UHGV virus genome: UHGV-0277504
DNA: 64,000 nt
Origin: a virus
Direction: 5' to 3' (one strand)
In this document: one piece after another, positions 3,937-39,142 of the stretch
Position numbering within the stretch: position 1 is the first letter of the stretch
How the letters are laid out: the number at the start of each line of letters is the position of its first letter
Program-made: the position numbers and the translations under genes
Notes under the pieces: model-generated
Databases searched by the model: none
Told to the model about the DNA's origin: nothing
Seen by the model: only the letters and a program-made list of their open reading frames with translations

Positions 3937-4842
3937 TTAGTATTGTAAATTTTTATTCATGTAATTAACTACTTCATTTACAATCATATCACTTGCTTTA
4001 TCTACATCATAACCTTCTGGAATAGTTAAATTTAAGTCTAAATTCTTACTTCTTGTTGTTGATTCTACTGTTTCTGTCTGTGGAGGTGAAAACCTACCAC
4101 CTTTACCACCTTTTAAGAATTTATCTGAACTACCCATTATACTAGCAATCATTGTATCCCAGTTTCCTGCTGTTGCATATTCATGTTGTCCTCCATTATG
4201 ACGCATTTTGTGTAGTGTTTTTTGTCCTCTACTATAGAAATTTTTAGCTATCCACTTAGCTCCACCAACAATACCTAAACCATAATTAAATCCGTTATTA
4301 GGATTGTTATCAAACGCACCAATTCCGTACCAGTTACCTTTTTTAGGGTCTCCTCCATGTGATAGGTTGGAAGTACCCCAAGCTGTTTCTACAGCACTAT
4401 GTGCTACTAAGTAACGAGGGTCTAATCCAGATGCTTTACCTGCTTTCATGTATATTTCTCCTAAACCACGCATTTTAGAATTTTTAGGAGCCATAGCGTC
4501 AATCCATTTATTTAACATCTTAGCATTAACGCCCTTAGCTGTTTTACCTAAATCGTGTTTAGTTATATCTGAATTAGTAAAGTTTTTACCATTTAAGTAA
4601 TCTAGTTCACCTACAGAACCGCCTTCATCATCTCCTCCAGAGTCTGATGATTCTAGGTTAGCTATTACGTTATCAAAGAATTGGCTTAATACAGGTATGT
4701 TTTTATTTTGTTCTCGTGCATTTTTCTCTCTTAAAGTTTCAAGTCTAAATCTTTCTTTTAGATTATTTCTCTTCTTACCCTTCTTCTTACCATAGGTTAA
4801 AATATATAAAACATTTATAAATTTTATCCTTTTATATAGGTC
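3937..4842 (-). CDS. muramidase (glucosaminidase-like) domain reading frame with no start codon for 108 codons; probable 3' exon of the tape measure gene
   Basis: Frame open from 4842 to 3937 (302 codons). First ATG/GTG/TTG in frame is at 4518 only. Upstream codons are protein-like (…RLETLREKNAREQ…SSDSGGDDEG…) and parallel the N-terminus of paralog 3077..3874. Glucosaminidase-type motif LVAHSAVETAWGTS. A group I intron lies immediately upstream. Confidence 0.55.
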   Translation of the reverse strand, partial: DLYKRIKFINVLYILTYGKKKGKKRNNLKERFRLETLREKNAREQNKNIPVLSQFFDNVIANLESSDSGGDDEGGSVGELDYLNGKNFTNSDITKHDLGKTAKGVNAKMLNKWIDAMAPKNSKMRGLGEIYMKAGKASGLDPRYLVAHSAVETAWGTSNLSHGGDPKKGNWYGIGAFDNNPNNGFNYGLGIVGGAKWIAKNFYSRGQKTLHKMRHNGGQHEYATAGNWDTMIASIMGSSDKFLKGGKGGRFSPPQTETVESTTRSKNLDLNLTIPEGYDVDKASDMIVNEVVNYMNKNLQY

Positions 4843-5268
4843 TTAGAAGGATAGTTATTTTTTTAAAAATATAAAGTTGGAATAAAATTTAAAAACTTAT
4901 ATATTTTAACTTTATTTAGCTATAGAACGCTACTTCTAAGCCCTAGGTCTATTCCTAGTCACTAGCTTTCACTACGTGTGTAGACTATTTGACTTCCCTA
5001 TTATTATAGGGTGGGTATTTTTCTTCCACCAATAGCTTGTGGTTTTACTCTCCCGTCAGGAGATAGTCGTTGAGGGTCTTCCTTATCTTTTGACTTAGGA
5101 CTTTCCCTGCTAAAGACCGATTACGTATACCTTAGGGTTTAACCTTAGCACATCTAACTTATTTTTTCTACTTTCGTAACTTTTCCATTTATCCTTTCGG
5201 ATTCTGTTTTAGTTAAGTTAGCTTTACGGATTCTTAGCATTTAACACCCGATACTAGCAACTTACGCT
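4790..5268 (-). ncRNA. group I intron at the 3' end of the tape measure gene (3' boundary uncertain, 4790-4830)
   Basis: Minus-strand core homologous to the other introns in the window (…GUUACGAAAGUAGAAAAAAU…UAGAUGU…CAACGACUAUCUCCUGACGGGAG…AAUAGUCUAC…). Candidate P1 is exon GCUAGU paired with intron GCUAGU (U.G at the splice site), placing the 5' splice site after …CTA GT, 5 nt before the TMP stop. Confidence 0.6.
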
Positions 5269-11076: not shown

Positions 11077-12027
11077 TTATTTGTTTTTAAACTTTCTTTT
11101 TAAATTTTTACCTATAGAACTTACTAAATTCTTAACATCATTTAAAGTTATATTAAAATAATTGCTAATTTCATATTTATCCATATATTGATATTTTTCA
11201 ATAAAATCATCAATATCTATCTCTAGTCCATTATAAAATGTAAACACACTAGGTCTTTTTGAAACTATCCCTAATCTATTTAATTTATTAAAAATCTCTA
11301 GTACAGTATCTTTATACGTAAATATAATAAGTTGTATACCATTTTCTTTACAGTAATCTTCTTTTTTAGTATCCCATTCCTTTTGTTTTTCTTTTGTAGT
11401 GTTTCTATAGTCTCTATAATGTTGCTGTCCGTTATATTCTATACAATACTCCATTCCTTTATGTTTAATATAAAAATCCATTCTCTGATTTGAATTTTTT
11501 AAGAGGTACTCTCTTTCATATACTGTACCATTGTAATCTAGTATATCTTTAATTATCTTCTCTCCTATAGATAATTTATATCCATTATTCTTTTTATTTC
11601 TAATAGTCTTTATATAGTCTATATAGCTAATAGCGTTTAATACAGTTAATTTCTCTTCTTCTGTAGCTTCTCTAACAGTATATCCTTTTGCAGTAGTTCT
11701 TGGAAACCCATCCCTATGCCCTCTTGACACGTTTATCAATTCTGACTTACTGATACCATATAAATTTTGTATCATTTCCATAGGTAACTTTATAACTTCA
11801 TTACCTTTAGTTAATACATATACCTTTATGCGTTTATCAGTAATTGTTTTTGCTTTTTCACTAAAATCAGAATCTTCGTACCTAAACAACCATCCTTTAG
11901 TAGATTTTATTTTACCTTCTAAACACCTATTAACCGTACCCGTATTACCTACTAAATTTTGTGCTTCTTTTACACTAATGAATTCTTTACTTTCTCCTGT
12001 TTTAGTGTTTAAACCTATAATTTTCAT
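11077..12027 (-). CDS. free-standing homing-endonuclease-like protein (N-terminal DNA-binding modules + C-terminal DUF559/Vsr-like nuclease motif)
   Basis: C-terminus has the DFY..IEYNGQQH motif shared with the three other paralogs in the window. Real start is probably MKIIGLN (12027), preceded by AAAGGAGG. Sits next to intron-containing tail tube region. Confidence 0.6.
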   Translation of the reverse strand: MKIIGLNTKTGESKEFISVKEAQNLVGNTGTVNRCLEGKIKSTKGWLFRYEDSDFSEKAKTITDKRIKVYVLTKGNEVIKLPMEMIQNLYGISKSELINVSRGHRDGFPRTTAKGYTVREATEEEKLTVLNAISYIDYIKTIRNKKNNGYKLSIGEKIIKDILDYNGTVYEREYLLKNSNQRMDFYIKHKGMEYCIEYNGQQHYRDYRNTTKEKQKEWDTKKEDYCKENGIQLIIFTYKDTVLEIFNKLNRLGIVSKRPSVFTFYNGLEIDIDDFIEKYQYMDKYEISNYFNITLNDVKNLVSSIGKNLKRKFKNK

Positions 12028-12097
12028 TATATATCCTCCTTTATTTTTATCTTTAAATAAATTATACCATGTCATTAGTGTTTTGTCAAATTAAAAA

Positions 12098-12125
12098 AGA
12101 CCTGAGATAACTCAGGTCTTATAAT
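12098..12125 (-). terminator. rho-independent terminator after tail tube/intron region
   Basis: Minus strand AAGACCUGAG-UUAUC-UCAGGUCUUUUUU. Confidence 0.6.
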
Positions 12126-12127
12126 CG

Positions 12128-12833
12128 AATTAAGCTTTGTCACTTGCTGTCCTTTGTACCCTATCTCTCGATATATTTTAAAGGGAGTAGACTATACCAT
12201 AATCTTTAATGTAATTTAAAGACTCACCTATTATAGTCGTTGAAGCTTCCCACTTTGTAGGCTTGCCTGCGTATCATCTATTGCTTTAAGTACTTAGGAT
12301 TTAACCTTATACCATACTAGATATTTTTTCTGATTTCTCAACCTTCAAGCTTATCTTTTAGGATTACTTTGTAGTTATCTAGTCTTTAAGACTTTCACGC
12401 AATTTAAGGTGTTTTCTATGCTTGTCACCAAACATAGCCTCTATAAATTAAAGGTAGCTAAATTCAATTTCTTCTGTTACGATTTCGTTTGTACGCCCTT
12501 TTATACCGTTGGTTTCCCAATACTTTAACACTTTTTTATTAGTCGGAATAGACTATACCATAATCTTTAATGTAATTTAAAGACTCACCTATTATAGTCG
12601 TTGAACCTTCTTCTTATCTTTAGACTTAGAAGCTTGGATGCTGATTACCTATTACTTAGTCACTTAGTACCTTCTGTTTAAGGCTTTTATCTCAACATAT
12701 GACATCTAATCAATTTTTTCTACTTTCGTAACCTTCACATTTACCTTTTCAAGTTTTGTTGTGGTTTGATTAGCTTTAAGGTTTTCCAGCAATTTAAGGT
12801 GTTATTCGATTATCTATTACTAGATAAAAGGAG
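12128..12833 (-). ncRNA. two tandem group I intron-like elements (plus candidate micro-exon) downstream of tail tube exon 1
   Basis: Two copies (approx 12815-12490 and 12425-12130) share UUCAACGACUAUAAUAGGUGAGUCUUUAAAUUACAUUAAAGAUUAUGGUAUAGUCUA (P7-P8-P7'). Both open with an ACACCUUAAAUUGC box. Copy A has P2-like UUAUCUAGUAAUAGAUAAUCGAAUAAC and a GUUACGAAAGUAGAAAAAAUUGAUUAGAUGU core. Confidence 0.6.
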
Positions 12834-13202
12834 CTATATTTTTTCTAACTCTTCATTGTAGTTATTAGCACTACAGCCATGGTAACTGATAATCACTTGT
12901 TTAGTTAAATTATCAATAACAAGAATGTCGATAATATCTTTCTTAAGAATTTCTTCACCTAGTGAAGCATATCCTAATTTTGCAAAGTTTTCTTTTTTCA
13001 TACGTAAACGTTCTACTGTTAACGTACCTTCATATTTTAAGTAAACGTGTTCTTGTGGCATGATTGAACCAATTTCATACACACCAGTAGTTCCGTATTC
13101 ACGTCTACCACTTGCTGATTGTGCTCTTCCTACTGGTTTACCTTTAATATACAACAATACGGTATTACCAGTATGGACTGTTTGTTTAGCTTGTGATGCC
13201 AT
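12834..13202 (-). CDS. tail tube protein (probably exon 1 of an intron-interrupted gene)
   Basis: 122 aa directly after the sheath gene; ORF stop lies at the beginning of the intron-like sequence. Confidence 0.7.
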   Translation of the reverse strand: MASQAKQTVHTGNTVLLYIKGKPVGRAQSASGRREYGTTGVYEIGSIMPQEHVYLKYEGTLTVERLRMKKENFAKLGYASLGEEILKKDIIDILVIDNLTKQVIISYHGCSANNYNEELEKI

Positions 13203-13261
13203 TTAATTCACTCTCCTATATTTTATATAGAGGAGCCATTAGGCTCCTCAATAGAGCCTAA

Positions 13262-15046
13262 TTAGGCTTGTAATGCTTGTTGTTTATAAACAAGACTTAC
13301 AGAAATTTTCTTAATGCTTCTGATAGGGTAAATAGTTAATGAGATTCTAGCTTCTTTACCTTCGATAATAACTTGTACATCTTCTGGTGGGAAGTCTTGA
13401 ATTTCATTGTCACGTTTCTTACGTTCTAGGTAAGAGATTACAAAGTCTTTCATAATTGAAGCACTTGTATTAATTGTTCGTGTACCAATGAACTCATCTT
13501 CTAATTCTCTCTTCAATTCAGAAACTAAGAAGTCATTAGCTTCCCCTACAGCCATTTCTGACTTAATAGGGTCAGACATGTCATTGTAAGTAGTTACGTC
13601 TTCTACAATACGGAAGTTTGTAACAGTTCTATTACGAACAAACTCGATACTAATAATACCATTTTCATTTAATTCATCAAGGTCAGTAGAATCATAAATG
13701 TTATCTAAACCATTGACATGCAAGTGTTTAAATGTAATTGATTCTCCGATACCTAAACCTGAAGCTAGACCTGCTACAGCACTTGCTACCATGTAAGCTG
13801 GTGCATGCAATTTACGACCATTTTCCATACCTAAAGTAGCACTGTTAGCGATTAGAGATACTCGAGGATTCATTAATGAAGAAGCTCTTCCATAAAGTTT
13901 TTCTTTATGTTCTGCTATTCCTCCACCTACTATAGCTCTCATAGGTTCCCCTGCATCTGAACGTTCTCTAACAAAGTGAGCTACTTCTGCATGTACAGAT
14001 TCACGAGAAGATAATGGTACGATATAGTATCCACCTAAGTGAGCAAATTTCTCGAATTTATCAGCCCAGCTTGTAGGCTCTTCTCCGTTAGTACCACCTT
14101 CAAGTTTAGTTAACTCGAAAGGTTCAATAGTTTTAAATTTTGCACCTTCTTCTGTTGTTGCTGTTACTGTGGCATTGTCTTCTCCAGCATCTACTGTTAC
14201 ATCACTTGAATTAGATACGTCTTCTGGTACTCGTTCAAAATGAATTAAACCATTATATTCAGTTTGTTTTTGTAAGTCACCAAAAATAGCTGTTACATAA
14301 GCACCTTTATCTGTAACATCTAAATCTTCTACTGGGTCAAGTAATGTACTTTCAATGTTTTTATCTCCAAAAGGTGATAACTTAGCTTCAAAGTCTGGTA
14401 GTTGATTAATATCTGTAATAACTTCGTTAGTGTATTTATATAAACCACCACTTAAGTCATACGATTTAACAACATTATCTCCAACTTTTAATACTAGACT
14501 TTCAGCTTTTTGTGTTTCATCATCATGGATTACAGAAACAGTAGCTTTAGGCTCTTCACCAGTATATTTAACTGTAAAGATATTACCAATGTTGTCATAA
14601 ACTTCATTAAATCTGTCGTTTTCAAAAATCAAACGCAAACGTAATGATTTACTTAAGTTGTTTTTCTCTAGAGCTACTTGAATATTATTAGACGCATTAC
14701 CGTAAATATCTGATACGATACGTAAACCGCCTTTTTCAACAGATGCTGGTTTAGCGTCTTCTACACGCATTGCAAAAATTTGACCTGCTGTGTAGTTAGG
14801 ATTAGAACCCCAAGCTAATTCAATAGCGTCTAAAAGCTCACCTGAACGGAAAGTACGTTTTGCTTGTGAATAGTTACGTAATTTATAAACTTGGTTAGGT
14901 TCCCCGCCTTCAGCTTTACCAATTAACATTAAAGTTTTTTCACTGGCACTTGCTGAACCGCCGATACCTGATGAATCTACTTCAATAGTAGCATGAGGTC
15001 TCGTAATAGGTCTACGTGGGAATACTTCTTTATAATCATTTGCCAT
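13262..15046 (-). CDS. tail sheath protein
   Basis: 594 aa; size and position (after head-tail connector genes, before tube) match myovirus sheath proteins. Confidence 0.85.
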   Translation of the reverse strand: MANDYKEVFPRRPITRPHATIEVDSSGIGGSASASEKTLMLIGKAEGGEPNQVYKLRNYSQAKRTFRSGELLDAIELAWGSNPNYTAGQIFAMRVEDAKPASVEKGGLRIVSDIYGNASNNIQVALEKNNLSKSLRLRLIFENDRFNEVYDNIGNIFTVKYTGEEPKATVSVIHDDETQKAESLVLKVGDNVVKSYDLSGGLYKYTNEVITDINQLPDFEAKLSPFGDKNIESTLLDPVEDLDVTDKGAYVTAIFGDLQKQTEYNGLIHFERVPEDVSNSSDVTVDAGEDNATVTATTEEGAKFKTIEPFELTKLEGGTNGEEPTSWADKFEKFAHLGGYYIVPLSSRESVHAEVAHFVRERSDAGEPMRAIVGGGIAEHKEKLYGRASSLMNPRVSLIANSATLGMENGRKLHAPAYMVASAVAGLASGLGIGESITFKHLHVNGLDNIYDSTDLDELNENGIISIEFVRNRTVTNFRIVEDVTTYNDMSDPIKSEMAVGEANDFLVSELKRELEDEFIGTRTINTSASIMKDFVISYLERKKRDNEIQDFPPEDVQVIIEGKEARISLTIYPIRSIKKISVSLVYKQQALQA

Positions 15047-26375: not shown

Positions 26376-27146
26376 CTAATCTATATAATAGTTTGTATTA
26401 CTATTTCCTGAATTATAATTAGTAGTAACAAAAGTAGAATTAAACGCTGTACCATTTCCTTGTTGTATTAACTGTTGTATTCGTGTTAATCCGATATTTG
26501 CATATACACTTGCCTGTGCCCAGTGGTCGTCACCTTTACGTTTAATTACTTGATACATTTCTTCTTTTTTCTCGTCTTCCTCATCCATAATTAAAACATT
26601 TTGCCAATGTTTTAAATATGTTCTAAGGTCATCATCTACTTCTTGATACATACGTATATTTTTTGTTTTTAGTCCTTGGATATAAATCTTATTTTGCATA
26701 AGCTTATCAACAGTTACCGTATTATCTTTTTCATTAAATTTAGGTCGTAACTGTCCTGTAGAACGTGGACTGGAATTGTAAGTACATCCAAAAACTTTAT
26801 CTTCTCCAAAATGGTTTATAAGTTTTAGGACATTATTACCACTATCCCCATTATCTGCTATGATAATGTCTGGTTCATATTTAGAAATTTCCCATATAAT
26901 TGTTTCTAAATCAGCTTCAACCATATTAGGTCTTGTATTTTTCTTAACAGAAAATAATCTTATTAAGTCTTTTTTACCATCAGGCAATACACCATGGACT
27001 GTAACCCAGTGGTGATTTCCCCAATCAATTCCTACAGAAATATAAGAATAATTACCTCTGTTAAACATTTGTTTTTTAGCAACAGGTGATTTATTTTCAA
27101 ATACATCTTCTTCAAGAACACGCATTTTAACATCTTCATATGGCAT
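26376..27146 (-). CDS. terL: terminase large subunit, exon 4 (C-terminal nuclease domain)
   Basis: …ISVGIDWGNHHW…IIADNGDSGNN… RNase-H-like terminase nuclease motifs. Begins at ATG 27146 directly after omega-G 27147 of the upstream intron, in frame with exon 3. Confidence 0.8.
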   Translation of the reverse strand: MPYEDVKMRVLEEDVFENKSPVAKKQMFNRGNYSYISVGIDWGNHHWVTVHGVLPDGKKDLIRLFSVKKNTRPNMVEADLETIIWEISKYEPDIIIADNGDSGNNVLKLINHFGEDKVFGCTYNSSPRSTGQLRPKFNEKDNTVTVDKLMQNKIYIQGLKTKNIRMYQEVDDDLRTYLKHWQNVLIMDEEDEKKEEMYQVIKRKGDDHWAQASVYANIGLTRIQQLIQQGNGTAFNSTFVTTNYNSGNSNTNYYID

Positions 27147-28444
27147 CAATTACTACCGTTACTTTCGTAATACTTTAACATTCATTTAAGAATCGGTTTA
27201 GACTATATCATAACCCTTATTTTTGGTTAAGGGTTCCTTGCTTTACACTAATAACTTTTCATTTAAATAATCTTCAATATCTTTATATTTTCTTTTACTA
27301 TAATCTACTTCAAGAAGTAAGTAACCGTTATATTCTGCATAACTTTTCTTTAGCTCATCTCTTAATTTTTGGTTTTTAAATGCCTTCTCTCCACCAAAAG
27401 ATTTTACTGGTTGATAATGTTGTATTCCTTGATACTCTATTAATATATCATACTCAGGTAAATAAAAGTCATAAGATAGTGGCTTATTGTAGATTAAATC
27501 ATCAAACTTTTTCTGTGTTTCATATTTAATATTATTATTAATTAAATATTCTTCTACAAACTTTTCTCCAATAGGCATTTTACATTTAGGACACATATCT
27601 CTCTCCATAAGATGAGAAGCTCTTATTTCCCATGTTAAACCACATTTATGTCTAACTAAAACTTTAGATTTAGAATTAGTATACTCTGATAACACTTCAT
27701 AATCATTACCGTATTTTTTCTTAACTTCATCTAAAAACTGTTGATGAGTTCTTCTTTGTTTTAAGTTATGGTTTTTTATTCTACAATGAAAACATCTACT
27801 GTTCTTTGATAGAAACTCATTAGGTTTAACTTCCCATTCTTTTCCACATACATTATGAATTAATTTTACTTTATTAGTGGCTCCTGTATAATCACCAATT
27901 AAAGTATATTCATCACCTACTAAATCATGGAGTTCTTTTTTAAATTGTTTTGTAGTTTTAGATTTCCTACCTTTTCTTTTATCATTACAAGCAGGACATC
28001 TGTTACCATCTAAAAAAGATTTAGGCTTTATTAAGTATTCATGATTTCCACAAGTCTCAGAATTATGTCTCATAAGTATTTTTGTTTTATTATTTACATA
28101 TTCTCCTAAAACTTCATATTCATTTGATACCTTATCATATACTCTTTTCTTAAATTCTTCTGTAGTTATCTTCCTTGTCATTTTTAACCCCCCTTCTTTA
28201 TACATTTTTTTATTAAAAGTTATTAGTTTTTATCTAGTTCTCACTATATCCATTTATATAGTTACCTAGAAATTTAGTCGTTCGGCATTTACTATAATCT
28301 AATTATACCATACATTGTTATTCTGTCAATAATTAAATTATAGATTTAGCACAGGATTGCTTTATGCTTTTTCTAGCACTTAAGGTTTCCCTGTTTAACA
28401 AGGTTATTCGATATATATTACTATATAAAGGGGCTATGCCATTA
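27147..28444 (-). ncRNA. group I intron 3 in terL (contains endonuclease ORF)
   Basis: P1 GGGU|UAAUGGCAUAGCCC (U.G at splice site; exon ends …YSLG, stop UAA is the first 3 nt of the intron). P2-like UUAUAUAGUAAUAUAUAUCGAAUAAC. P7 5' AACGACUAAA before the ORF. S-element AUGAUAUAGUCUAAACC plus 3' module after the ORF. Confidence 0.75.
27243..28181 (-). CDS. intron-encoded homing endonuclease-like protein (Cys4 zinc-ribbon repeats + DUF559/Vsr-like nuclease motif)
   Basis: Start MTRKITTEEF after AAGGGGGG SD; three CxxC…CxxC ribbons; C-terminal YDFYLPEYDILIEYQGIQH; paralog of 29214..30155. Confidence 0.7.
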   Translation of the reverse strand: MTRKITTEEFKKRVYDKVSNEYEVLGEYVNNKTKILMRHNSETCGNHEYLIKPKSFLDGNRCPACNDKRKGRKSKTTKQFKKELHDLVGDEYTLIGDYTGATNKVKLIHNVCGKEWEVKPNEFLSKNSRCFHCRIKNHNLKQRRTHQQFLDEVKKKYGNDYEVLSEYTNSKSKVLVRHKCGLTWEIRASHLMERDMCPKCKMPIGEKFVEEYLINNNIKYETQKKFDDLIYNKPLSYDFYLPEYDILIEYQGIQHYQPVKSFGGEKAFKNQKLRDELKKSYAEYNGYLLLEVDYSKRKYKDIEDYLNEKLLV

Positions 28445-29170
28445 ACCCAACGAATAGTTATAAAATGCTTGCTTAGAATCTGTGTTCATTTCTTTTTCTA
28501 CTAATTGGTCTGCTGAAATCCATACAGCGTTCATTTGAGATATATAATATCCTCTAATACCTGAATTATTTTTTGTTCGTTCAGGATAACGACATTCCCA
28601 CACACCATTATACCATCTATCTAAAGGTTTACCACATTTTTGACATACATATTGGTATGTTCCATCTTGTACCGTTTTTGCTTGTTCATCAATACCTTCA
28701 GGATTAACCAATAATAAATTACCGCTTTGTTCTAAATTATTCTCATCATAGGGAGCATATTTCATCTCGTTATGGTAATCACAATGTTGGCAAACATGTG
28801 CATAGTACCATTGGTCTGATTGTTGATATAATTTATGAATACCTACACCTGGAGCTGAAGGTGTTGAGAATCTTCTAACAATGTGTAATGGTGAACTTGA
28901 CATAGATTCAAGTGCTGATGATTCAGCAAGTGAGTTAACACGTTCATATTCATCCATAGCTAAAAAGTCAATATCCACACCCTCAACTGAACCTGGTTTA
29001 CTACTCGTTCTAAAGAATAGACTAGAGTTTCTTATTTGTTTATACCCTAAAGAATCTTTATCCCAATTTACTATATCTTTAAAATATGATTTTTCTAAAA
29101 CAGGATTAAGCCTTGACTGAACAAATTTCTTAAGTTGCTCTTGTGTCGATTCTACCGCTATTTTCATAGT
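28445..29170 (-). CDS. terL: terminase large subunit, exon 3 (ATPase Walker B/motif III region)
   Basis: VDIDFLAMDEYE (Walker B-like), RRFSTPS; 5' end lies 0-15 nt upstream of ATG 29167 (in-frame stop 6 codons upstream sits inside the intron S-element/P9). Confidence 0.7.
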
Positions 29171-30428
29171 ATTTAAAACGGACTAGACTATATCTTAACT
29201 CAACATTTAGGTGTTAAGTTCTCTGCTTTACTTCTAAAACTAACTTTAATATATCTTTCTCTATACTCATTTCATTTTGTGTATAAGGTATTCTAATAAG
29301 TCTGATATTGTTATCTTGTGCATACTTATTTTTTATGCCATCCCTTATTTGTATTTCTCTTAGATAATCTTCTCCTCCAAAAAAATCCACTACTTTAGTA
29401 TGTTGTAATCCATCAAATTCAATAAGAGTATTTATAGAAGGAATATAAAAATCAAAAGGTAATTCTCTTTTATATCTACATTCTTTAAATCTTTTTTCTC
29501 TTTCAAATTCTACATTGTGTTTATTAAGTAAATCTTGTATTAACAACTCTCCTTTTGATGATTTACAATAAGGACACCCTGATAAGCGTATCACTTGATT
29601 AGGTTCAGATTTAAACGTATTTGAACATTCTGTACATCTAAAAGTAGTTTTTGTATGTGTATTTACATACTCTCCTTCTAATAAGATACGAGTTCCATGC
29701 TTATCTTTTAAATCTTTAAGTAACTTATTAATATCTTTTTTCTGTTTATCATGATTATACTCATTTACACATTTAGGACATAAAAACTTTTTATGTTGTC
29801 TTAATGCATTTGTAGGACTTACTAAAAAAGTATGGTTATGTTTTAAACATCTATGTTTAATTTTTACATCATGGGTTTTATAAATACCTTCTATTACTAT
29901 ATTTCCTTTATATTTGTTTTCTAATTCTTTACTATATTTTTCATAACTCTTAACCCTTTTTAGTTCTCTACAATGTTTACATCTGTTACCGTTCATAAAA
30001 TTGTTTGCTTTTACTTCCCATTCTTTACCACACTTATTATGTCTAAGTAAAACTTTATTTTTACTTAAAGTATACGTACCTATGACAGTATACTCATCTC
30101 CTACTAAATTATAAACATCTTTAACAAATTCTTCATGCGTTTTTTTCTTAGTCATTATATACTACCCTCCTTATACCTTATAATTTAATCTAGTTTTATT
30201 AAAGTTAGTTAGTTTTCTTATCTAGTTCTCACCTACACCTTTTTGTAAGTTACCTAGAAATTTAGTCGTTAGGCATTTACCTTAATTTAATTATATCATA
30301 CATTATTATTTTGTCAATAATTAAATTAAAGATTTAGCACGGTATCGGCTCTATCCGTTAGGACTTAGCTTCTCTTACCAGGTTATTCATTATTCCCCTG
30401 TGACCGTTTAACAGAGTTTTAATTCCCC
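29171..30428 (-). ncRNA. group I intron 2 in terL (contains endonuclease ORF)
   Basis: 5' core 30420-30180 homologous to introns 1 and 3 (CUCUGUUAAACGG…GUGCUAAAUCU…AACGACUAAAUUUC). S-element AAGAUAUAGUCUAG at ~29190 overlaps the ORF 3' end. Upstream exon ends U|UAA. Confidence 0.65.
29214..30155 (-). CDS. intron-encoded homing endonuclease-like protein (Cys4 zinc-ribbon repeats + DUF559/Vsr-like nuclease motif)
   Basis: 313 aa; MTKKKTHEEFVKDVYNLVGDEY parallels 27243 paralog; C-terminal FDFYIPSINTLIEFDGLQH; AAGGAGGG SD. Confidence 0.7.
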   Translation of the reverse strand: MTKKKTHEEFVKDVYNLVGDEYTVIGTYTLSKNKVLLRHNKCGKEWEVKANNFMNGNRCKHCRELKRVKSYEKYSKELENKYKGNIVIEGIYKTHDVKIKHRCLKHNHTFLVSPTNALRQHKKFLCPKCVNEYNHDKQKKDINKLLKDLKDKHGTRILLEGEYVNTHTKTTFRCTECSNTFKSEPNQVIRLSGCPYCKSSKGELLIQDLLNKHNVEFEREKRFKECRYKRELPFDFYIPSINTLIEFDGLQHTKVVDFFGGEDYLREIQIRDGIKNKYAQDNNIRLIRIPYTQNEMSIEKDILKLVLEVKQRT

Positions 30429-30569
30429 AAAGATTTAGGGAATGTGTAAAGACATTTTACATTTTTAAAACTATACATATCTGCAAAATGTACCATTTCC
30501 ATTACAGACATTTCACTTAATCCTAGCTGACGTGACTTAATTACTGCTTTATTAGGATGAGTATCATTT
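30429..30569 (-). CDS. terL: terminase large subunit, exon 2 (mini-exon with deviant Walker A KSRQLGLS)
   Basis: ~47 codons NDTHPNKAVIKSRQLGLSEMSVMEMVHFADMY… with stops flanking. Joins exon 1 (ending …AAA AUC GU) in frame via the first A after omega-G 30570. KSRQxGxS matches the deviant terminase Walker A of the lambda gpA KSARVGYS type. 3' boundary is ±10 nt. Confidence 0.6.
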
Positions 30570-30917
30570 CAATTACTACCGTTACTTTCGTAATACTTTA
30601 ACATTCATTTAAGAATCGGTTTAGACTATATCACAACCCTTATTTTTGGTTAAGGGTTCTCTGCTTTACGGAATATTATTCCTCTTATCTATTAAAATAG
30701 AAATTTAGTCGTTAGGCTTTTACTATAATCAAATTATATCATATATTATTATTTTGTCAATAATTAAATTATAGATTTAGCACGGTTGGTTCCCACTGTC
30801 TGTGTATAGTCAGATTTAGGGTTTCTTACCAGTATATTGGTTTTCTATACATTATTTTACTATGCCCGTTTAACAGAGTTATTCAATACATATTACTACA
30901 TAAGGTCGCAAATAATT
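30570..30917 (-). ncRNA. group I intron 1 in terL (no ORF)
   Basis: ~345 nt; P1 UCGU/GCGA with U.G; P2-like UUAUGUAGUAAUAUGUAUUGAAUAAC; core and 100-nt 3' module near-identical to intron 3. Confidence 0.7.
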
Positions 30918-31131
30918 ATACGATTTTAACTTGCCAAGGTCTATGTGCTTGTGCTTTACTTCTATCTCTATTAGGTATACTGAATGTAATAGGATGTCCT
31001 CTTAGTGTATGATACTTTAACATATACGTACTCGGATTAAGCATATTCAATATATGGTCTAACTGTTCTCTAGTAACATTTTTTGTTTTAAAAGTTTCCT
31101 GTGTCATTTTTATTAATTCTTTACCATCCAT
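30916..31131 (-). CDS. terL: terminase large subunit, exon 1 (N-terminus)
   Basis: AGGAGG SD + ATG 31131; ORF stops 2 codons into intron 1. Confidence 0.6.
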   Translation of the reverse strand: MDGKELIKMTQETFKTKNVTREQLDHILNMLNPSTYMLKYHTLRGHPITFSIPNRDRSKAQAHRPWQVKIV

Positions 31132-37326: not shown

Positions 37327-38058
37327 ATGAAAACTAAAAAACAAGCTTTAAAATGGATTTTAAATACTATAGGTCAAGGTATAGATTGGGATAAAATGTA
37401 TGGGTTTCAATGTATGGATTTAGTTGTTGCTTATTTATATTACGTTACTGATGGGAAAATAGCAATGTGGGGAAATGCTATTGATGCTCCTAAAAATAAT
37501 TTTAAAGGTACTGCTAAAGTAATTAAAAATTACCCTGCTTTTAGACCTGAAGCAGGAGATATAGTAGTTTGGTCTTATGGTAATTTTAGTACTTACGGAC
37601 ATATTGCTGTAGTTATAGATGGAGACCCTTACGGTGACTTGCAGTATATCACAGTAGCTGAGCAAAATTGGAATGGTTTAGGACTATACAAACAAGAAGT
37701 TACTACAAAACGTATTCATAATTACGATGGTGTATCTCATTTCATAAGACCTAAGTTCAAAAAAACAGTTAAAAAAGAAGATAACACTCTTACAAAAGAA
37801 AAAAACAACAAAAAAACAAAAGGAAAAAAATTAAAAGTATCAACACAAAGAATAAACTACACTATGGATAAAAGAGGTTATAAACCTAAATTTGTTGTAA
37901 TACACAATGATGCTGGTAGTTCTTCTGCACAACAGTATGAACAAGGATTAAAAAATGCAGGATACAGTAGATATGCTCAAGGAGTAGCACATGCATACGC
38001 TTCTGATGGTTATGTGTGGGAAGCAATATCAGAAGATAGAATAGCTTGGCATACGGGT
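37327..38058 (+). CDS. endolysin exon 1 (CHAP domain + start of amidase_2 domain)
   Basis: CHAP motifs (FQCMDLV…GHIAVV); amidase start VVIHNDAG…AWHTG; exon ends at GGGU of P1. Confidence 0.8.
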
Positions 38059-38410
38059 AAATAGTTGCCCTGTTATATAGTAATGTATAATTAAAATTCT
38101 TTTAATTGACTGGGAGGCTAAGGCTATCAAGCTATGCTAATCAGCATCCAAGAATATTGTTTAAAAAAACTACTTGACAACATAATAACTTTTGGAAACA
38201 ATATTAAGGTTCAACGACTATCCTTATAGACGAGTGCCAATAAAAAATAAATCGTCAACAGGAGTAGGGCTCAAGTTAATGGAGTAGGTGAGAATCCTTT
38301 AAATCGAAATGGAGAACCCCTAAAATAATTAGGGTGAAGATATAGTCTAGACTTATAGGAAACTATGAGAAGTTCATAAGAGAACTGGTAGAGTGTTACG
38401 AACTCTATTG
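38059..38410 (+). ncRNA. group I intron in endolysin gene (352 nt, no ORF)
   Basis: P1 GGGU|AAAUAGUUGCCC; P2-like GUUAUAUAGUAAUGUAUAAUUAAAA; P7 GGUUCAACGACUAUCC; S-element GAAGAUAUAGUCUAGAC; P9 AGAGUGUUACGAACUCU; omega-G 38410. Confidence 0.8.
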
Positions 38411-39142
38411 AATATATCGGATGGAACAAATCCAGGAACAGGTAACTTTGAAGGATATGGAATTGAAGTTTGTCAATCTTTAGGAGATAGAAATACTTTC
38501 TTAAAAAATGAGCAAACTGTATTCCAATTTATTGCAGAAAAATTGCAAAAATGGAACTTACCTGCAAATAGAAATACCATCAGACTTCATAATGAATTTA
38601 TACAAACAGAATGTCCCCATGCTTCAGCATATTATCATGCAGGTATGAATACTAAAGTAGATGCTTATACAAAAGAAAGACAATTAAAAATAAAAGATTA
38701 TTTCATAAAACAAATTAGAGCATACATGAAAGGAAGTACACCTAAATCTACAGTAGTAAAATCTAGTAAAAGTAGTGGTTCTTTACCTAAGAAACAAGGT
38801 AAAAAACAAAAATTTAAATCAAATATTGGTAAAACATTCGACTTTAATGGATTAAATACCAATACTTGGGGTACTAAATGGTATTATGAAAATAATACAT
38901 TTACATGTAATGCTCGACAAGGTATCATAACAAGAGTAGGTAGTCCGTTTACAAACGCACCTCAAGCAGGTGTTTTATTCTACGGACAAACTGTAACATA
39001 TAATCAAGTAGCTGTTAATCCAAAAGAGCCATTTGTATGGATTTCATGGATTACAAATAATGGTACTGAAGTATGGATGCCTATTGAAGTCTTAGACAGT
39101 AATAATAAAATTATTGAGCAGTGGGGTACTTTTGGTTGGTAA
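38411..39142 (+). CDS. endolysin exon 2 (rest of amidase_2 + SH3b cell-wall binding domain)
   Basis: Spliced junction …AWHTG|NISDGTNPGTGNFEGYGIEVCQS restores a contiguous N-acetylmuramoyl-L-alanine amidase domain; C-terminal SH3b-like WYYENNTFTC…. Confidence 0.8.
   Translation, partial: NISDGTNPGTGNFEGYGIEVCQSLGDRNTFLKNEQTVFQFIAEKLQKWNLPANRNTIRLHNEFIQTECPHASAYYHAGMNTKVDAYTKERQLKIKDYFIKQIRAYMKGSTPKSTVVKSSKSSGSLPKKQGKKQKFKSNIGKTFDFNGLNTNTWGTKWYYENNTFTCNARQGIITRVGSPFTNAPQAGVLFYGQTVTYNQVAVNPKEPFVWISWITNNGTEVWMPIEVLDSNNKIIEQWGTFGW

What the first reader, a model, noticed from the sequence alone, without database searches (positions are those of the whole stretch)
12075..13202. Tail tube gene followed by two tandem group I intron-like elements and a candidate micro-exon
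Downstream of the 122-aa tube ORF lie two ~300-nt minus-strand copies. They share an identical P7-P8-P7' block and homologous starts, and copy A carries the same P2 and core sequences as the terL/TMP introns. Between them is a short open frame GIKGRTNEIVTEEIEFSYL* that would bring the product to ~142 aa, consistent with a multi-intron small structural gene (Twort orf142-like arrangement). A strong terminator follows at 12098-12125 and a free-standing endonuclease gene lies just beyond. Exact splice sites are unresolved (a candidate P1 is GAGU/GCUC). Tandem near-identical introns also create potential for exon skipping.
Basis: partly seen in the sequence, partly recalled or inferred. Interest (0 to 1): 0.65.

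Follow-up and report, generated by a model that had tools for sequence, protein, structure and literature searches.

The report
Two self-splicing introns in tail-tube gene
The tail-tube gene of this Staphylococcus epidermidis phage is split by two ORF-less group I introns that leave a 47-base micro-exon. This arrangement is already known from phage Twort and phage 812, but public records of this phage group annotate only a truncated 122-aa protein.

Summary

**Gene structure (minus strand)**
- The tail-tube gene is the orthologue of Twort orf142 and the phage 812 tail-tube protein.
- exon 1: 13202-12848
- intron A: 12847-12498 (350 nt)
- exon 2: 12497-12451 (47 nt)
- intron B: 12450-12151 (300 nt)
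- exon 3: 12150-12130
- Splicing gives a 140-aa protein.

**Evidence for the splice junctions**
- The 140-aa product aligns end to end with the solved phi812 tail-tube protein.
- It is identical to the protein of natural intronless Sepunavirus alleles.
- All nucleotide differences from those alleles are synonymous.

**Evidence that both elements are group I introns**
- Rfam RF00028 gives E 1e-10 and 3e-5, though both scores are below the curated cut-off.
- An alignment of 22 related tube-gene introns from five insertion sites has 68 consensus pairs. Of the cells, 99.4% are paired, and 39 pairs show compensatory changes.
- The guide sequence co-varies with the exon at each site, always placing a U·G pair at the 5' splice site and a G at the intron end.

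- The micro-exon starts at GG-CGT; 'GIKG' is intron.
- A third exon (TASDKA*) was missed.
- The two introns are only 69% identical overall, but they share a 57-nt identical core block.

**Novelty**
This is a new member of a known kind and amounts to an annotation gap. Interest is modest.

The parts
12848..13202 (-). Tail-tube gene exon 1 (355 nt). Encodes M1-E118 plus the first base of the Trp119 codon and ends ...GAA GAG T.
   Evidence: ORF listing and splice model. SEP1 and the intronless alleles read gaa gaa/gag tgg cgt without interruption at this point.
12498..12847 (-). Intron A, an ORF-less group I intron of 350 nt, inserted after nt 355 of the coding sequence (Trp119 codon, phase 1). 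Helices: P1 GAGU|UA with guide UAGCUC; P2 12826-12811 (GUAA loop); P3 12801-12797 / 12590-12586; P4 12791-12786 / 12644-12639; P7 12599-12594 / 12556-12551; P8 12585-12562; P9 12546-12506. It ends ...UAUAAAAG.
   Evidence: RF00028 gives 29.7 bits, E 2.9e-5. All 68 consensus pairs are standard in this sequence. P1 table. Helix coordinates.
12451..12497 (-). Exon 2, a 47-nt micro-exon: GG CGT ACA AAC GAA ATC GTA ACA GAA GAA ATT GAA TTT AGC TAC CTT, encoding (W)RTNEIVTEEIEFSYL.
   Evidence: It differs from SEP1 and the intronless alleles at 6 positions, all synonymous. The two variant sites among metagenomic copies are also synonymous.
12151..12450 (-). Intron B, an ORF-less group I intron of 300 nt, inserted between the Leu134 and Thr135 codons (nt 402/403). 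It begins with an in-frame UAA. Helices: P1 CCUU|UA with guide UAGAGG; P2 12434-12419 (GUGA loop); P3 12411-12407 / 12229-12225; P7 12238-12233 / 12195-12190; P8 12224-12201; P9 12185-12159. It ends ...UACAAAGG.
   Evidence: RF00028 gives 47.9 bits, E 9.7e-11. Copies about 91% identical sit at the same site in many Kayvirus and Silviavirus phages. 67 of 68 consensus pairs are standard.
12130..12150 (-). Exon 3 (21 nt): ACA GCA AGT GAC AAA GCT TAA, encoding TASDKA plus stop.
   Evidence: Identical to the uninterrupted sequence in SEP1. Aligns to residues 135-140 of the solved phi812 tail-tube protein.
12549..12605 (-). 57-nt block (J6/7-P7-P3'-P8-P7') in intron A, identical to 12188-12244 in intron B.
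   Evidence: The sliding-window comparison shows this segment is 100% identical to the Sepunavirus site-g introns but only 41-72% identical to all other classes, which indicates gene conversion from intron B.
12188..12244 (-). The matching 57-nt core block in intron B.
12097..12120 (-). Intrinsic-terminator-like hairpin (10 pairs) followed by a T run, starting 10 nt after the exon 3 stop codon.
   Evidence: A terminator is annotated at the equivalent place in Quidividi.
12061..12089 (-). Perfect consensus promoter-like site (TTGACA, 17 nt, TG-TATAAT) in front of the nuclease gene.
   Evidence: 12 of 12 matches.
11077..12027 (-). Free-standing putative homing-type nuclease gene (316 aa, start MKIIGLN). 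It has an N-terminal NUMOD-like DNA-binding domain; the C-terminal part resembles phage homing and HNH-annotated nucleases.
   Evidence: PF22083 at 27.9 bits against a cut-off of 27; CoiA_nuc is weak and below its cut-off. phrog_7140 E 8e-115. Annotated 'intron encoded nuclease' in phage 80A and SEP1. No solved relative by sequence.

Best explanation
The window comes from a Sepunavirus, a Twortvirinae myovirus that infects Staphylococcus epidermidis. Its tail-tube gene is interrupted near the 3' end by two ORF-less, self-splicing group I introns.

**Inferred mechanism (standard group I chemistry)**
1. The gene is transcribed as a single RNA that ends at the terminator at 12120-12097.
2. Each intron folds into the P3-P9 catalytic core.
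3. Each intron pairs its internal guide sequence with the last four exon bases plus its own first two bases. This P1 helix has a U·G wobble at the cleavage site.
4. An external guanosine attacks the 5' splice site.
5. The freed exon end then attacks the bond after the intron's terminal G, joining the exons.

**Result of splicing**
- Removing both introns joins 355 + 47 + 21 nt into a 423-nt reading frame. It encodes the full 140-aa tube protein ending ...NYNEEWRTNEIVTEEIEFSYLTASDKA.
- Unspliced RNA gives a 122-aa product that lacks the last 22 residues.
- RNA that retains only intron B gives a 134-aa product.

**Shown versus inferred**
- Shown here: the exon junctions, the conserved and covarying ribozyme structure, and the orthology with Twort orf142 and the phi812 tube protein.
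- Inferred: that splicing actually occurs in this phage. The inference rests on the gene being essential in viable isolates and on established group I chemistry.
For: **Identity of the phage and the annotation gap**
- The region is 99-99.9% identical to Sepunavirus phages BE05, 80A, 80B, Quidividi and Terranova.
- In the four of these records whose annotation was read (BE05, 80A, Quidividi; 80B from the hit table), only a 122-aa CDS is annotated and no intron.

**Match to the intron family**
- Both elements match RF00028 full length, with E 9.7e-11 and 2.9e-5.

**Exon junctions**
- In SEP1, both insertion sites are uninterrupted and the sequence reads exactly as the predicted junctions.
- The exact 140-aa product exists in public data on five contigs that carry an uninterrupted tube gene in a Sepunavirus context.
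- Those contigs differ from the window's spliced coding sequence at 7-24 positions without changing any amino acid.
- The 140-aa product aligns over residues 1-140 with the solved phi812 tail-tube protein 8q01_A, E 5e-85.

**Ribozyme structure**
- Alignment A2 holds 22 tube-gene introns from five insertion sites. It gives 68 consensus pairs with 99.4% of cells paired.
- 39 of these pairs carry compensatory changes. Controls with the partner slid by 1-3 columns pair only 33-42% of cells.
- Intron A keeps 68 of 68 pairs and intron B keeps 67 of 68.
- P1 has the same geometry in all five classes: four exon pairs, a U·G at position -1, and two intron pairs.
- The guide hexamer changes with the exon sequence at each site, and every intron ends in G.

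**Precedent**
- Twort orf142 is the same gene and is annotated as a four-piece join with group I introns.
Against: - No RNA or protein data exist for this phage.
- Both Rfam scores fall below the curated gathering score of 50. Whole-window scans report nothing.
- Single-sequence folding is only weakly better than shuffled sequence, with z-scores of -1.3 and -2.2.
- No convincing P10 pairing was seen for either intron.
Confidence: 0.9

Rival explanations
1. The two elements are decayed, non-splicing intron relics or other repeats. The phage would then build its tail from the colinear 122-aa protein.
For: Public records annotate exactly this 122-aa CDS. Both Rfam scores are below the curated threshold.
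Against: - All consensus helices are intact in both elements, and the family shows abundant compensatory change.
- Exons 2 and 3 are conserved at the protein level, with only synonymous differences from intronless alleles.
- The terminator follows exon 3, not the 122-aa stop codon.
- The missing 22 residues are part of the solved tube protein.
Confidence: 0.03
2. Only intron A has to be removed. Intron B is often retained, because it starts with an in-frame UAA that yields a 134-aa tube lacking just TASDKA. Splicing of intron B would then be dispensable or partial.
For: - The isoform calculation gives 134 aa for the RNA with only intron A removed.
- phiSA039 and relatives are annotated with a 134-aa product that ends at this point.
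- The extreme C-terminus varies among homologues: TASDKA, TASDKART, SADKASR, SAANVK.
Against: - The intron B structure is conserved, and the same intron (about 91% identical) sits at the same site across three genera.
- Exon 3 is identical to the uninterrupted SEP1 sequence.
- The transcript terminator lies after exon 3.
Confidence: 0.06
3. The two introns cooperate as one large hybrid ribozyme. The 5' part of A would pair with the identical P7-P3'-P8-P7' block of B, skipping the micro-exon and joining exon 1 to exon 3, as reported for Twort orf142 introns 2 and 3. This would be a significant, possibly regulatory, splicing outcome.
For: - The two introns share a 57-nt identical core block and identical P3 strands.
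- Exon skipping between two similar introns flanking a 23-nt exon was reported for Twort orf142 (PMC10136302, citing Landthaler and Shub 1999).
Against: - The skipped product is frameshifted...NYNEEYSK*, 121 aa. It lacks the conserved C-terminus, so it can only be a by-product.
- P4, P5 and P6 are distinct in each intron and complete within each intron, which favours independent folding.
- No RNA data are available.
Confidence: 0.1

Closest known systems
Staphylococcus phage Twort orf142, with three self-splicing group I introns (Landthaler and Shub 1999; GenBank AF132670)
   Same: - It is the same gene: directly downstream of the tail sheath gene and similar to A511 Orf8.
- Multiple ORF-less group I introns are packed into the last roughly 85 nt of the coding sequence.
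- Very short internal exons result.
- Two neighbouring introns are similar to each other, and exon skipping has been reported.
   Different: - The insertion sites differ. In Twort they are after Tyr115, within Ile129 and within Ser137. Here they are within Trp119 and after Leu134.
- The Twort introns carry an inserted P7.1/P7.2-type region between P7 and P3'. The window introns have only AUA there and instead have a 130-170-nt multi-hairpin extension of P5.
- BLAST with either window intron matches the Twort genome only over a 54-nt stretch under its terminase gene. The separate orf142 record appears in none of the rows listed.
Kayvirus 812 / 676Z / A3R tail-tube gene (tmpA), with two non-coding introns and an adjacent putative endonuclease gene (Lobocka 2012; Botka 2019, PMC6445280)
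   Same: - Two ORF-less introns lie in the tail-tube gene, followed by a nuclease gene.
- 676Z intron 1 lies after nt 355, the same position as window intron A.
- The CDS is annotated as a three-piece join.
   Different: - The 676Z introns are of the Twort-like structural type, not the type found here.
- The second 676Z intron lies in the Phe131 codon rather than after Leu134.
- The adjacent nuclease (Ioh, 467 aa) is a different protein.
Site-g intron of Kayvirus and Silviavirus phages (phiSA039, pSco-10, SA3, RODI, Romulus, LSA2311)
   Same: Intron B is the same intron, 91-93% identical, at the same site with the same guide sequence.
   Different: The Sepunavirus copies (window, Quidividi, BE25) carry a distinct P8 variant (GAGUCUUUAAAUUACAUUAAAGAUU). 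In this phage that variant has also been copied into intron A.
Free-standing homing endonuclease plus ORF-less intron ('collaborative homing', cyanophage S-PM2 psbA intron and F-CphI; recalled from memory, not checked here)
   Same: ORF-less introns lie next to a free-standing nuclease gene, and sequence divergence is concentrated around the insertion sites.
   Different: No cleavage specificity is known for the nuclease here. Introns also occur in phages with no nuclease gene at this position, such as Romulus and LSA2311. The nuclease also occurs next to intronless tube genes.

Membership tests
Group I self-splicing intron | Conserved core helices P3-P9, including the P3/P7 pseudoknot, supported by covariation | tested here: met
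   68 pairs, 99.4% of cells paired, 39 pairs with compensatory change, slid controls 33-42%. Intron A keeps 68 of 68 pairs and intron B keeps 67 of 68.
Group I self-splicing intron | P1 helix formed by an internal guide sequence, with a U·G wobble at the 5' splice site | tested here: met
   GAGU|UA with UAGCUC for intron A, and CCUU|UA with UAGAGG for intron B. The related introns at three other sites have the same geometry with matching guide changes.
Group I self-splicing intron | Terminal guanosine (omega-G) at the 3' end of the intron | tested here: met
   The introns end ...UAUAAAAG and ...UACAAAGG. In the classes with the standard P9, an 8-nt tail follows P9 and ends in G.
Group I self-splicing intron | Score at or above Rfam RF00028's curated gathering threshold (50 bits) | tested here: not met
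   47.9 and 29.7 bits, with E 9.7e-11 and 2.9e-5 in a 1.5-kb scan. Nothing is reported in whole-window scans.
Group I self-splicing intron | Precise removal restores a conserved reading frame | tested here: met
   The spliced product is identical to the protein of intronless alleles and aligns over residues 1-140 with the solved tube protein.
Group I self-splicing intron | Guanosine-dependent self-splicing activity | not testable with these tools
   This needs an in vitro splicing assay or RT-PCR. Contigs L019 and L020 show SEP1 sequence with its related intron exactly absent. These may be RNA-seq assemblies, but the library type could not be checked.
Twort orf142-type introns (structural type with P7.1/P7.2) | Extra helices inserted between P7 and P3' | tested here: not met
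   Only AUA separates P7 (GACUAU) from P3' (AGGUG) in both introns. The Twort introns have a long insert at that position.
Twort orf142-type introns (structural type with P7.1/P7.2) | Same host gene | tested here: met
   AF132670 orf142 follows the sheath gene. Its first 115 residues are 89% identical to the K-like phage vB_Sau_Clo6 tube protein.
Twort orf142-type introns (structural type with P7.1/P7.2) | Same insertion sites | tested here: not met
   Twort sites lie after Tyr115, in Ile129 and in Ser137. Window sites lie in Trp119 and after Leu134.
Mobile group I intron carrying its own homing endonuclease gene | An ORF for a nuclease inside the intron | tested here: not met
   No sense-strand ORF of 30 aa or more lies within 12151-12847. 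Only two short antisense ORFs are present.
Free-standing homing endonuclease (the downstream ORF) | A recognisable nuclease catalytic domain plus a DNA-binding module | tested here: inconclusive
   The NUMOD-like domain just passes its cut-off (27.9 against 27 bits). CoiA nuclease-like is below its cut-off (16.5 against 20.3). PHROG families annotated as intron-encoded, homing or HNH nucleases match strongly. There is no solved relative by sequence.

The most novel reading that the evidence does not exclude
The last roughly 85 nt of the Twortvirinae tail-tube gene is an exceptionally dense hot spot for intron insertion.

- I mapped ten distinct insertion positions, used by two structurally different intron lineages.
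- At least six configurations occur within the genus Sepunavirus alone, counting the intronless one.
- The position just downstream of the gene is occupied by interchangeable free-standing nuclease genes.

The most novel reading is that these nucleases cut intronless tube alleles and so drive ORF-less introns into new neighbouring sites. Retargeting would occur by change of the guide sequence. The tandem introns would exchange core segments by gene conversion, as the 57-nt identical block suggests. Such exchange could in turn allow hybrid-ribozyme exon skipping.
Probability: 0.2. Interest if true: 0.55.

Novelty: new member of a known kind. Interest (0 to 1): 0.3.

Why it matters
**Practical consequence**
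- An essential structural gene is mis-annotated as a truncated 122-aa protein in this group of therapeutic-candidate S. epidermidis phages. The annotation read in records for BE05, 80A, 80B and Quidividi shows this.
- The same truncated ORF occurs on many metagenomic contigs.
- This distorts protein clustering, core-gene phylogenies and proteomic searches. The Herelleviridae reclassification paper already noted introns as a confounder for such analyses.

**Biological interest**
- Intron A is a distinct, mosaic member of a family of related introns that has moved between at least five neighbouring sites by changing its guide sequence.
- Together with Twort and phage 812, this gives a natural series for studying intron retargeting, gene conversion between tandem ribozymes and exon skipping.
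- It does not reveal a new kind of element.

Tried and rejected
- **Rfam on the whole window.** Neither the gathering nor the E-value threshold reported any intron. The 8-10-kb scans of terL and the tape-measure-protein (TMP) gene, and a 1-kb scan of TMP, also reported none. Only the 1.5-kb scan of the finding worked. I therefore used an nhmmer profile of my own alignment to locate the other introns.
- **Spliced alignment.** A nucleotide-level dynamic-programming alignment against the intronless cDNA of the K-like phage vB_Sau_Clo6 gave only approximate boundaries and spurious terminal blocks. I fixed the boundaries by eye, using the U/G rule and the intronless alleles.
- **IMG/VR search.** An exact-pattern scan for the 5' end of intron A found nothing.
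- **Landthaler and Shub 1999** (PMC22036) is not held in the library.
- **Are the five contigs spliced mRNA of this phage?** I considered this and rejected it. The contigs carry the SEP1/Twillingate or another synonymous pattern, not the window's.
- **P10 pairing.** I looked for it between the guide region and the 3' exons and found none convincing.
- **Subgroup.** I did not assign one (IA, IB and so on). The only conclusion is that these are not the Twort orf142 type.
Full report
**What the window is**

The 1.2-kb region is 99-99.9% identical to the Staphylococcus epidermidis myoviruses vB_SepM_BE05, 80A, 80B, Quidividi and Terranova (genus Sepunavirus, subfamily Twortvirinae). I read the annotation of BE05, 80A and Quidividi, and the hit table covers 80B. 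In these records the gene after the tail sheath is annotated as a 122-aa 'tail tube' or hypothetical protein. About 800 nt of unannotated DNA follow, then an 'intron encoded nuclease'. The same layout is present here on the minus strand: sheath 15046-13262, the 122-aa ORF 13202-12834, and a nuclease-like ORF ending at 11077.

**Checking the observation**

A scan of 11900-13400 against Rfam gave two full-length matches to Intron_gpI (RF00028) on the minus strand:
- 12169-12460, 47.9 bits, E 9.7e-11
- 12540-12856, 29.7 bits, E 2.9e-5

Both scores are below the curated cut-off of 50 bits. Neither match appears when the whole 64-kb window is scanned.

The two copies share two identical segments, each occurring exactly twice in the window:
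- a 57-nt block (TTCAACGACTATAATAGGTGAGTCTTTAAATTACATTAAAGATTATGGTATAGTCTA) at 12605-12549 and 12244-12188
- the P3-P4 start ACACCTTAAATTGC

Overall the copies are only 69% identical. The terminator-like hairpin at 12120-12097 and a perfect TTGACA-17-TATAAT promoter-like site at 12089-12061 are also present.

**Exon-intron structure**

The intronless tube protein of the K-like phage vB_Sau_Clo6 ends ...GCSANNYNETWTTNEIVTEEIEFSYLTASDKART (142 aa). I read the window against it and applied the group I rule: the 5' exon ends in U, which pairs with G in P1, and the intron ends in G. This gives the following structure:

| Part | Coordinates (minus strand) | Length |
|---|---|---|
| exon 1 | 13202-12848 | 355 nt |
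| intron A | 12847-12498 | 350 nt |
| exon 2 | 12497-12451 | 47 nt |
| intron B | 12450-12151 | 300 nt |
| exon 3 | 12150-12130 | 21 nt |

The product is 140 aa and ends ...NYNEEWRTNEIVTEEIEFSYLTASDKA.

Three independent comparisons fix these junctions.

1. In phage SEP1 (same genus), both sites are uninterrupted. The sequence reads gaa gaa tgg cgt acg aat, then SEP1's own intron at another site, then gaa atc ... agc tat ctt aca gca agt gac aaa gct taa.
2. The exact 140-aa sequence is present in the public protein collection.
   - It lies on five contigs that carry an uninterrupted tube gene in a Sepunavirus context.
   - Those contigs differ from the window's spliced coding sequence at 7, 10 or 24 nucleotides. 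None of these differences changes an amino acid.
   - That pattern is strong purifying selection on exons 2 and 3 in the predicted frame.
3. The product aligns over residues 1-140 with the solved tail-tube protein of phage phi812 (8q01_A, E 5e-85).

The junction at intron A cannot be slid without losing the conserved Trp. At intron B a 1-nt slide is protein-neutral. The position of the U·G pair in P1 and the CTT codon in SEP1 favour the stated junction.

**Are they real ribozymes?**

I collected the tube-gene region from 18 related phages and defined 23 introns of the same family, at five different insertion sites. In an alignment of 22 of them, RNAalifold recovered P2, P4, P5 with a multi-hairpin extension, P6, P7, P8 and P9. 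Of 65 predicted pairs, 37 showed compensatory change.

Adding the P3 pseudoknot gave these figures:

| Measure | Value |
|---|---|
| Consensus pairs | 68 |
| Cells forming standard pairs | 99.4% |
| Pairs with changes on both sides | 39 |
| Covariation score (shuffled mean) | 0.498 (0.185) |
| Shuffles reaching the observed score | 0 of 500 |
| Cells paired when partners are slid 1-3 columns | 33-42% |

Intron A keeps 68 of 68 pairs and intron B keeps 67 of 68. Helix coordinates are given.

P1 is especially informative. In all five site classes it consists of four exon base pairs, a U·G at the splice site and two intron base pairs. The guide hexamer changes to match each exon:

| Exon end and intron start | Guide hexamer |
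|---|---|
| GAGT\|TA | TAGCTC |
| CCTT\|TA | TAGAGG |
| GAAT\|TG | CAGTTC |
| GGTT\|TA | TAGACC |
| CAAT\|AA | TTGTTG |

Single-sequence folding reproduces most helices but is only marginally better than shuffled sequence, with z-scores of -1.3 and -2.2. Among eight further copies of the window-type allele from genomes and metagenomes, the few intron variants fall in loops or convert a C-G pair to U·G. The two exon 2 variants are synonymous.

**Relation to what is known**

- **Twort orf142.** GenBank AF132670 follows the sheath gene, is annotated as similar to A511 Orf8, and is a four-piece join 'containing group 1 introns'. It is the same gene.
  - Its three introns lie after Tyr115, within Ile129 and within Ser137. 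One of the internal exons is 23 nt long.
  - They are of a different structural type, with a long insert between P7 and P3'. The window introns have only AUA there.
[quoted passage not shown] Both features were lost together in 812a-derived mutants (PMC6445280).
  - 676Z tmpA is annotated as a three-piece join.
  - Its first intron lies after nt 355, exactly the position of window intron A. It is nevertheless a Twort-like intron.
- **Intron B** is the Sepunavirus copy of an intron found at the same site in many Kayvirus and Silviavirus phages, at 91-93% identity.
- **Intron A** is no more than 74% identical to any other class, and only five phage records match it at 95% identity or more. It is mosaic.
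  - Its 5' two-thirds resemble the site-b and site-e introns.
  - Its P3'-P8 segment is 100% identical to the Sepunavirus form of intron B but only 41-72% identical to all others. This indicates gene conversion between the tandem neighbours.

**Isoforms**

| RNA form | Product |
|---|---|
| Unspliced, or only intron B removed | 122 aa |
| Only intron A removed | 134 aa (intron B begins with an in-frame UAA) |
| Both introns removed | 140 aa |
| Exon 2 skipped | 121 aa, frameshifted (...NYNEEYSK*) |

Exon skipping is structurally conceivable because P3, P7 and P8 are identical in the two introns. It can only yield a defective product.

**The neighbouring gene**

The ORF at 12027-11077 (316 aa) has a NUMOD-like DNA-binding domain. 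It matches phage families annotated as intron-encoded or homing nucleases. It is free-standing, with its own promoter-like site. Across the phages examined, this position holds at least three or four different nuclease-like genes, or none.

Between the window and the contigs with an uninterrupted gene, divergence is very uneven:
- The 3.3 kb upstream is 99.25% identical.
- The last 70 nt of the coding sequence carry 7 synonymous differences.
- The region downstream is 90-95% identical.

This is the pattern expected at a boundary of homing or recombination. A causal role for the nuclease remains untested.

**Verdict**

It is a further example of an arrangement first described in Twort in 1999 and later in phage 812, here unannotated and with one intron of a distinct lineage. 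I rate it as a new member of a known kind, of modest interest.

Noticed in passing
window 26376-31131 (-): The large terminase gene is split into three ORF pieces (30916-31131, 28442-29167, 26376-27149) by two long insertions. Each insertion carries a nuclease-like ORF (29214-30155 and 27243-28205) with CapR/DUF4379 zinc-finger domain hits. A profile of the tube introns hits 30563-30675, 29139-29219, 28337-28455 and 27140-27255. P2-like GUAA hairpins lie at 30887-30902 and 28412-28427.
   Followed up: partly
window 4518-5262 (-): The tape-measure-protein gene appears to be interrupted. The 1105-aa ORF ends at 5262 and a 193-aa ORF follows at 4518-3937. The tube-intron profile matches 5061-5246 with E 2.5e-24, and a CAACGACUAU...AAUAGUCUA core is visible. 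Rfam reports nothing, even on a 1-kb scan.
   Followed up: partly
window 37327-39142 (+): The endolysin gene looks split, with ORFs at 37327-38064 and 38393-39142 separated by about 330 nt with no ORF. There are weak intron-profile hits at 38041-38372 and a P2-like hairpin at 38074-38089.
   Followed up: no
tube genes in L006-L018, L024, L029, L030: I mapped ten different intron insertion positions within nt ~329-410 of the tube gene across Twortvirinae: Cys110, Asn113|Asn114, Tyr115|Asn116, Trp119, Asn122|Glu123, Val125, Ile129, Phe131, Leu134|Thr135 and Ser137. Two structurally different intron lineages use them. Sepunavirus alone shows at least six configurations, counting the intronless one. 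LSA2311 has three introns.
   Followed up: partly
L024:2956-3260 (phage 676Z tmpA intron 1): This Twort-like intron sits at the same position as window intron A. The only in-frame junction makes it end in A (..AACA|GGCAG) rather than the universal terminal G, even though P1 (GAGACAU/GUGUCUC) and P10 (GGCAGA/UCUGCU) fit that junction.
   Followed up: no
L019 and L020 (Logan contigs from SRR27723745 and SRR27723736): These contigs are 100% and 99.9% identical to SEP1 on either side of the tube-gene intron, and they lack the 337-nt intron exactly at the predicted junction. The run numbers are close together, and a SEP1 RNA-seq study (GSE254200) was published in 2024. The contigs may therefore be assembled spliced mRNA. 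The library type could not be checked.
   Followed up: partly
window 12130-12500 compared with L019-L023: Synonymous differences between the window and the contigs with an uninterrupted tube gene cluster in the last ~100 nt of that gene. The upstream 3.3 kb is 99.25% identical and the downstream nuclease region is 90-95% identical. The end of the tube gene looks like a recombination boundary.
   Followed up: partly
whole window: Method note. Rfam cmscan finds no group I intron when given the whole 64-kb window at either threshold, although the window holds at least two and probably six or more. Intron detection here depended on giving a short sub-region or a home-made profile.
   Followed up: yes
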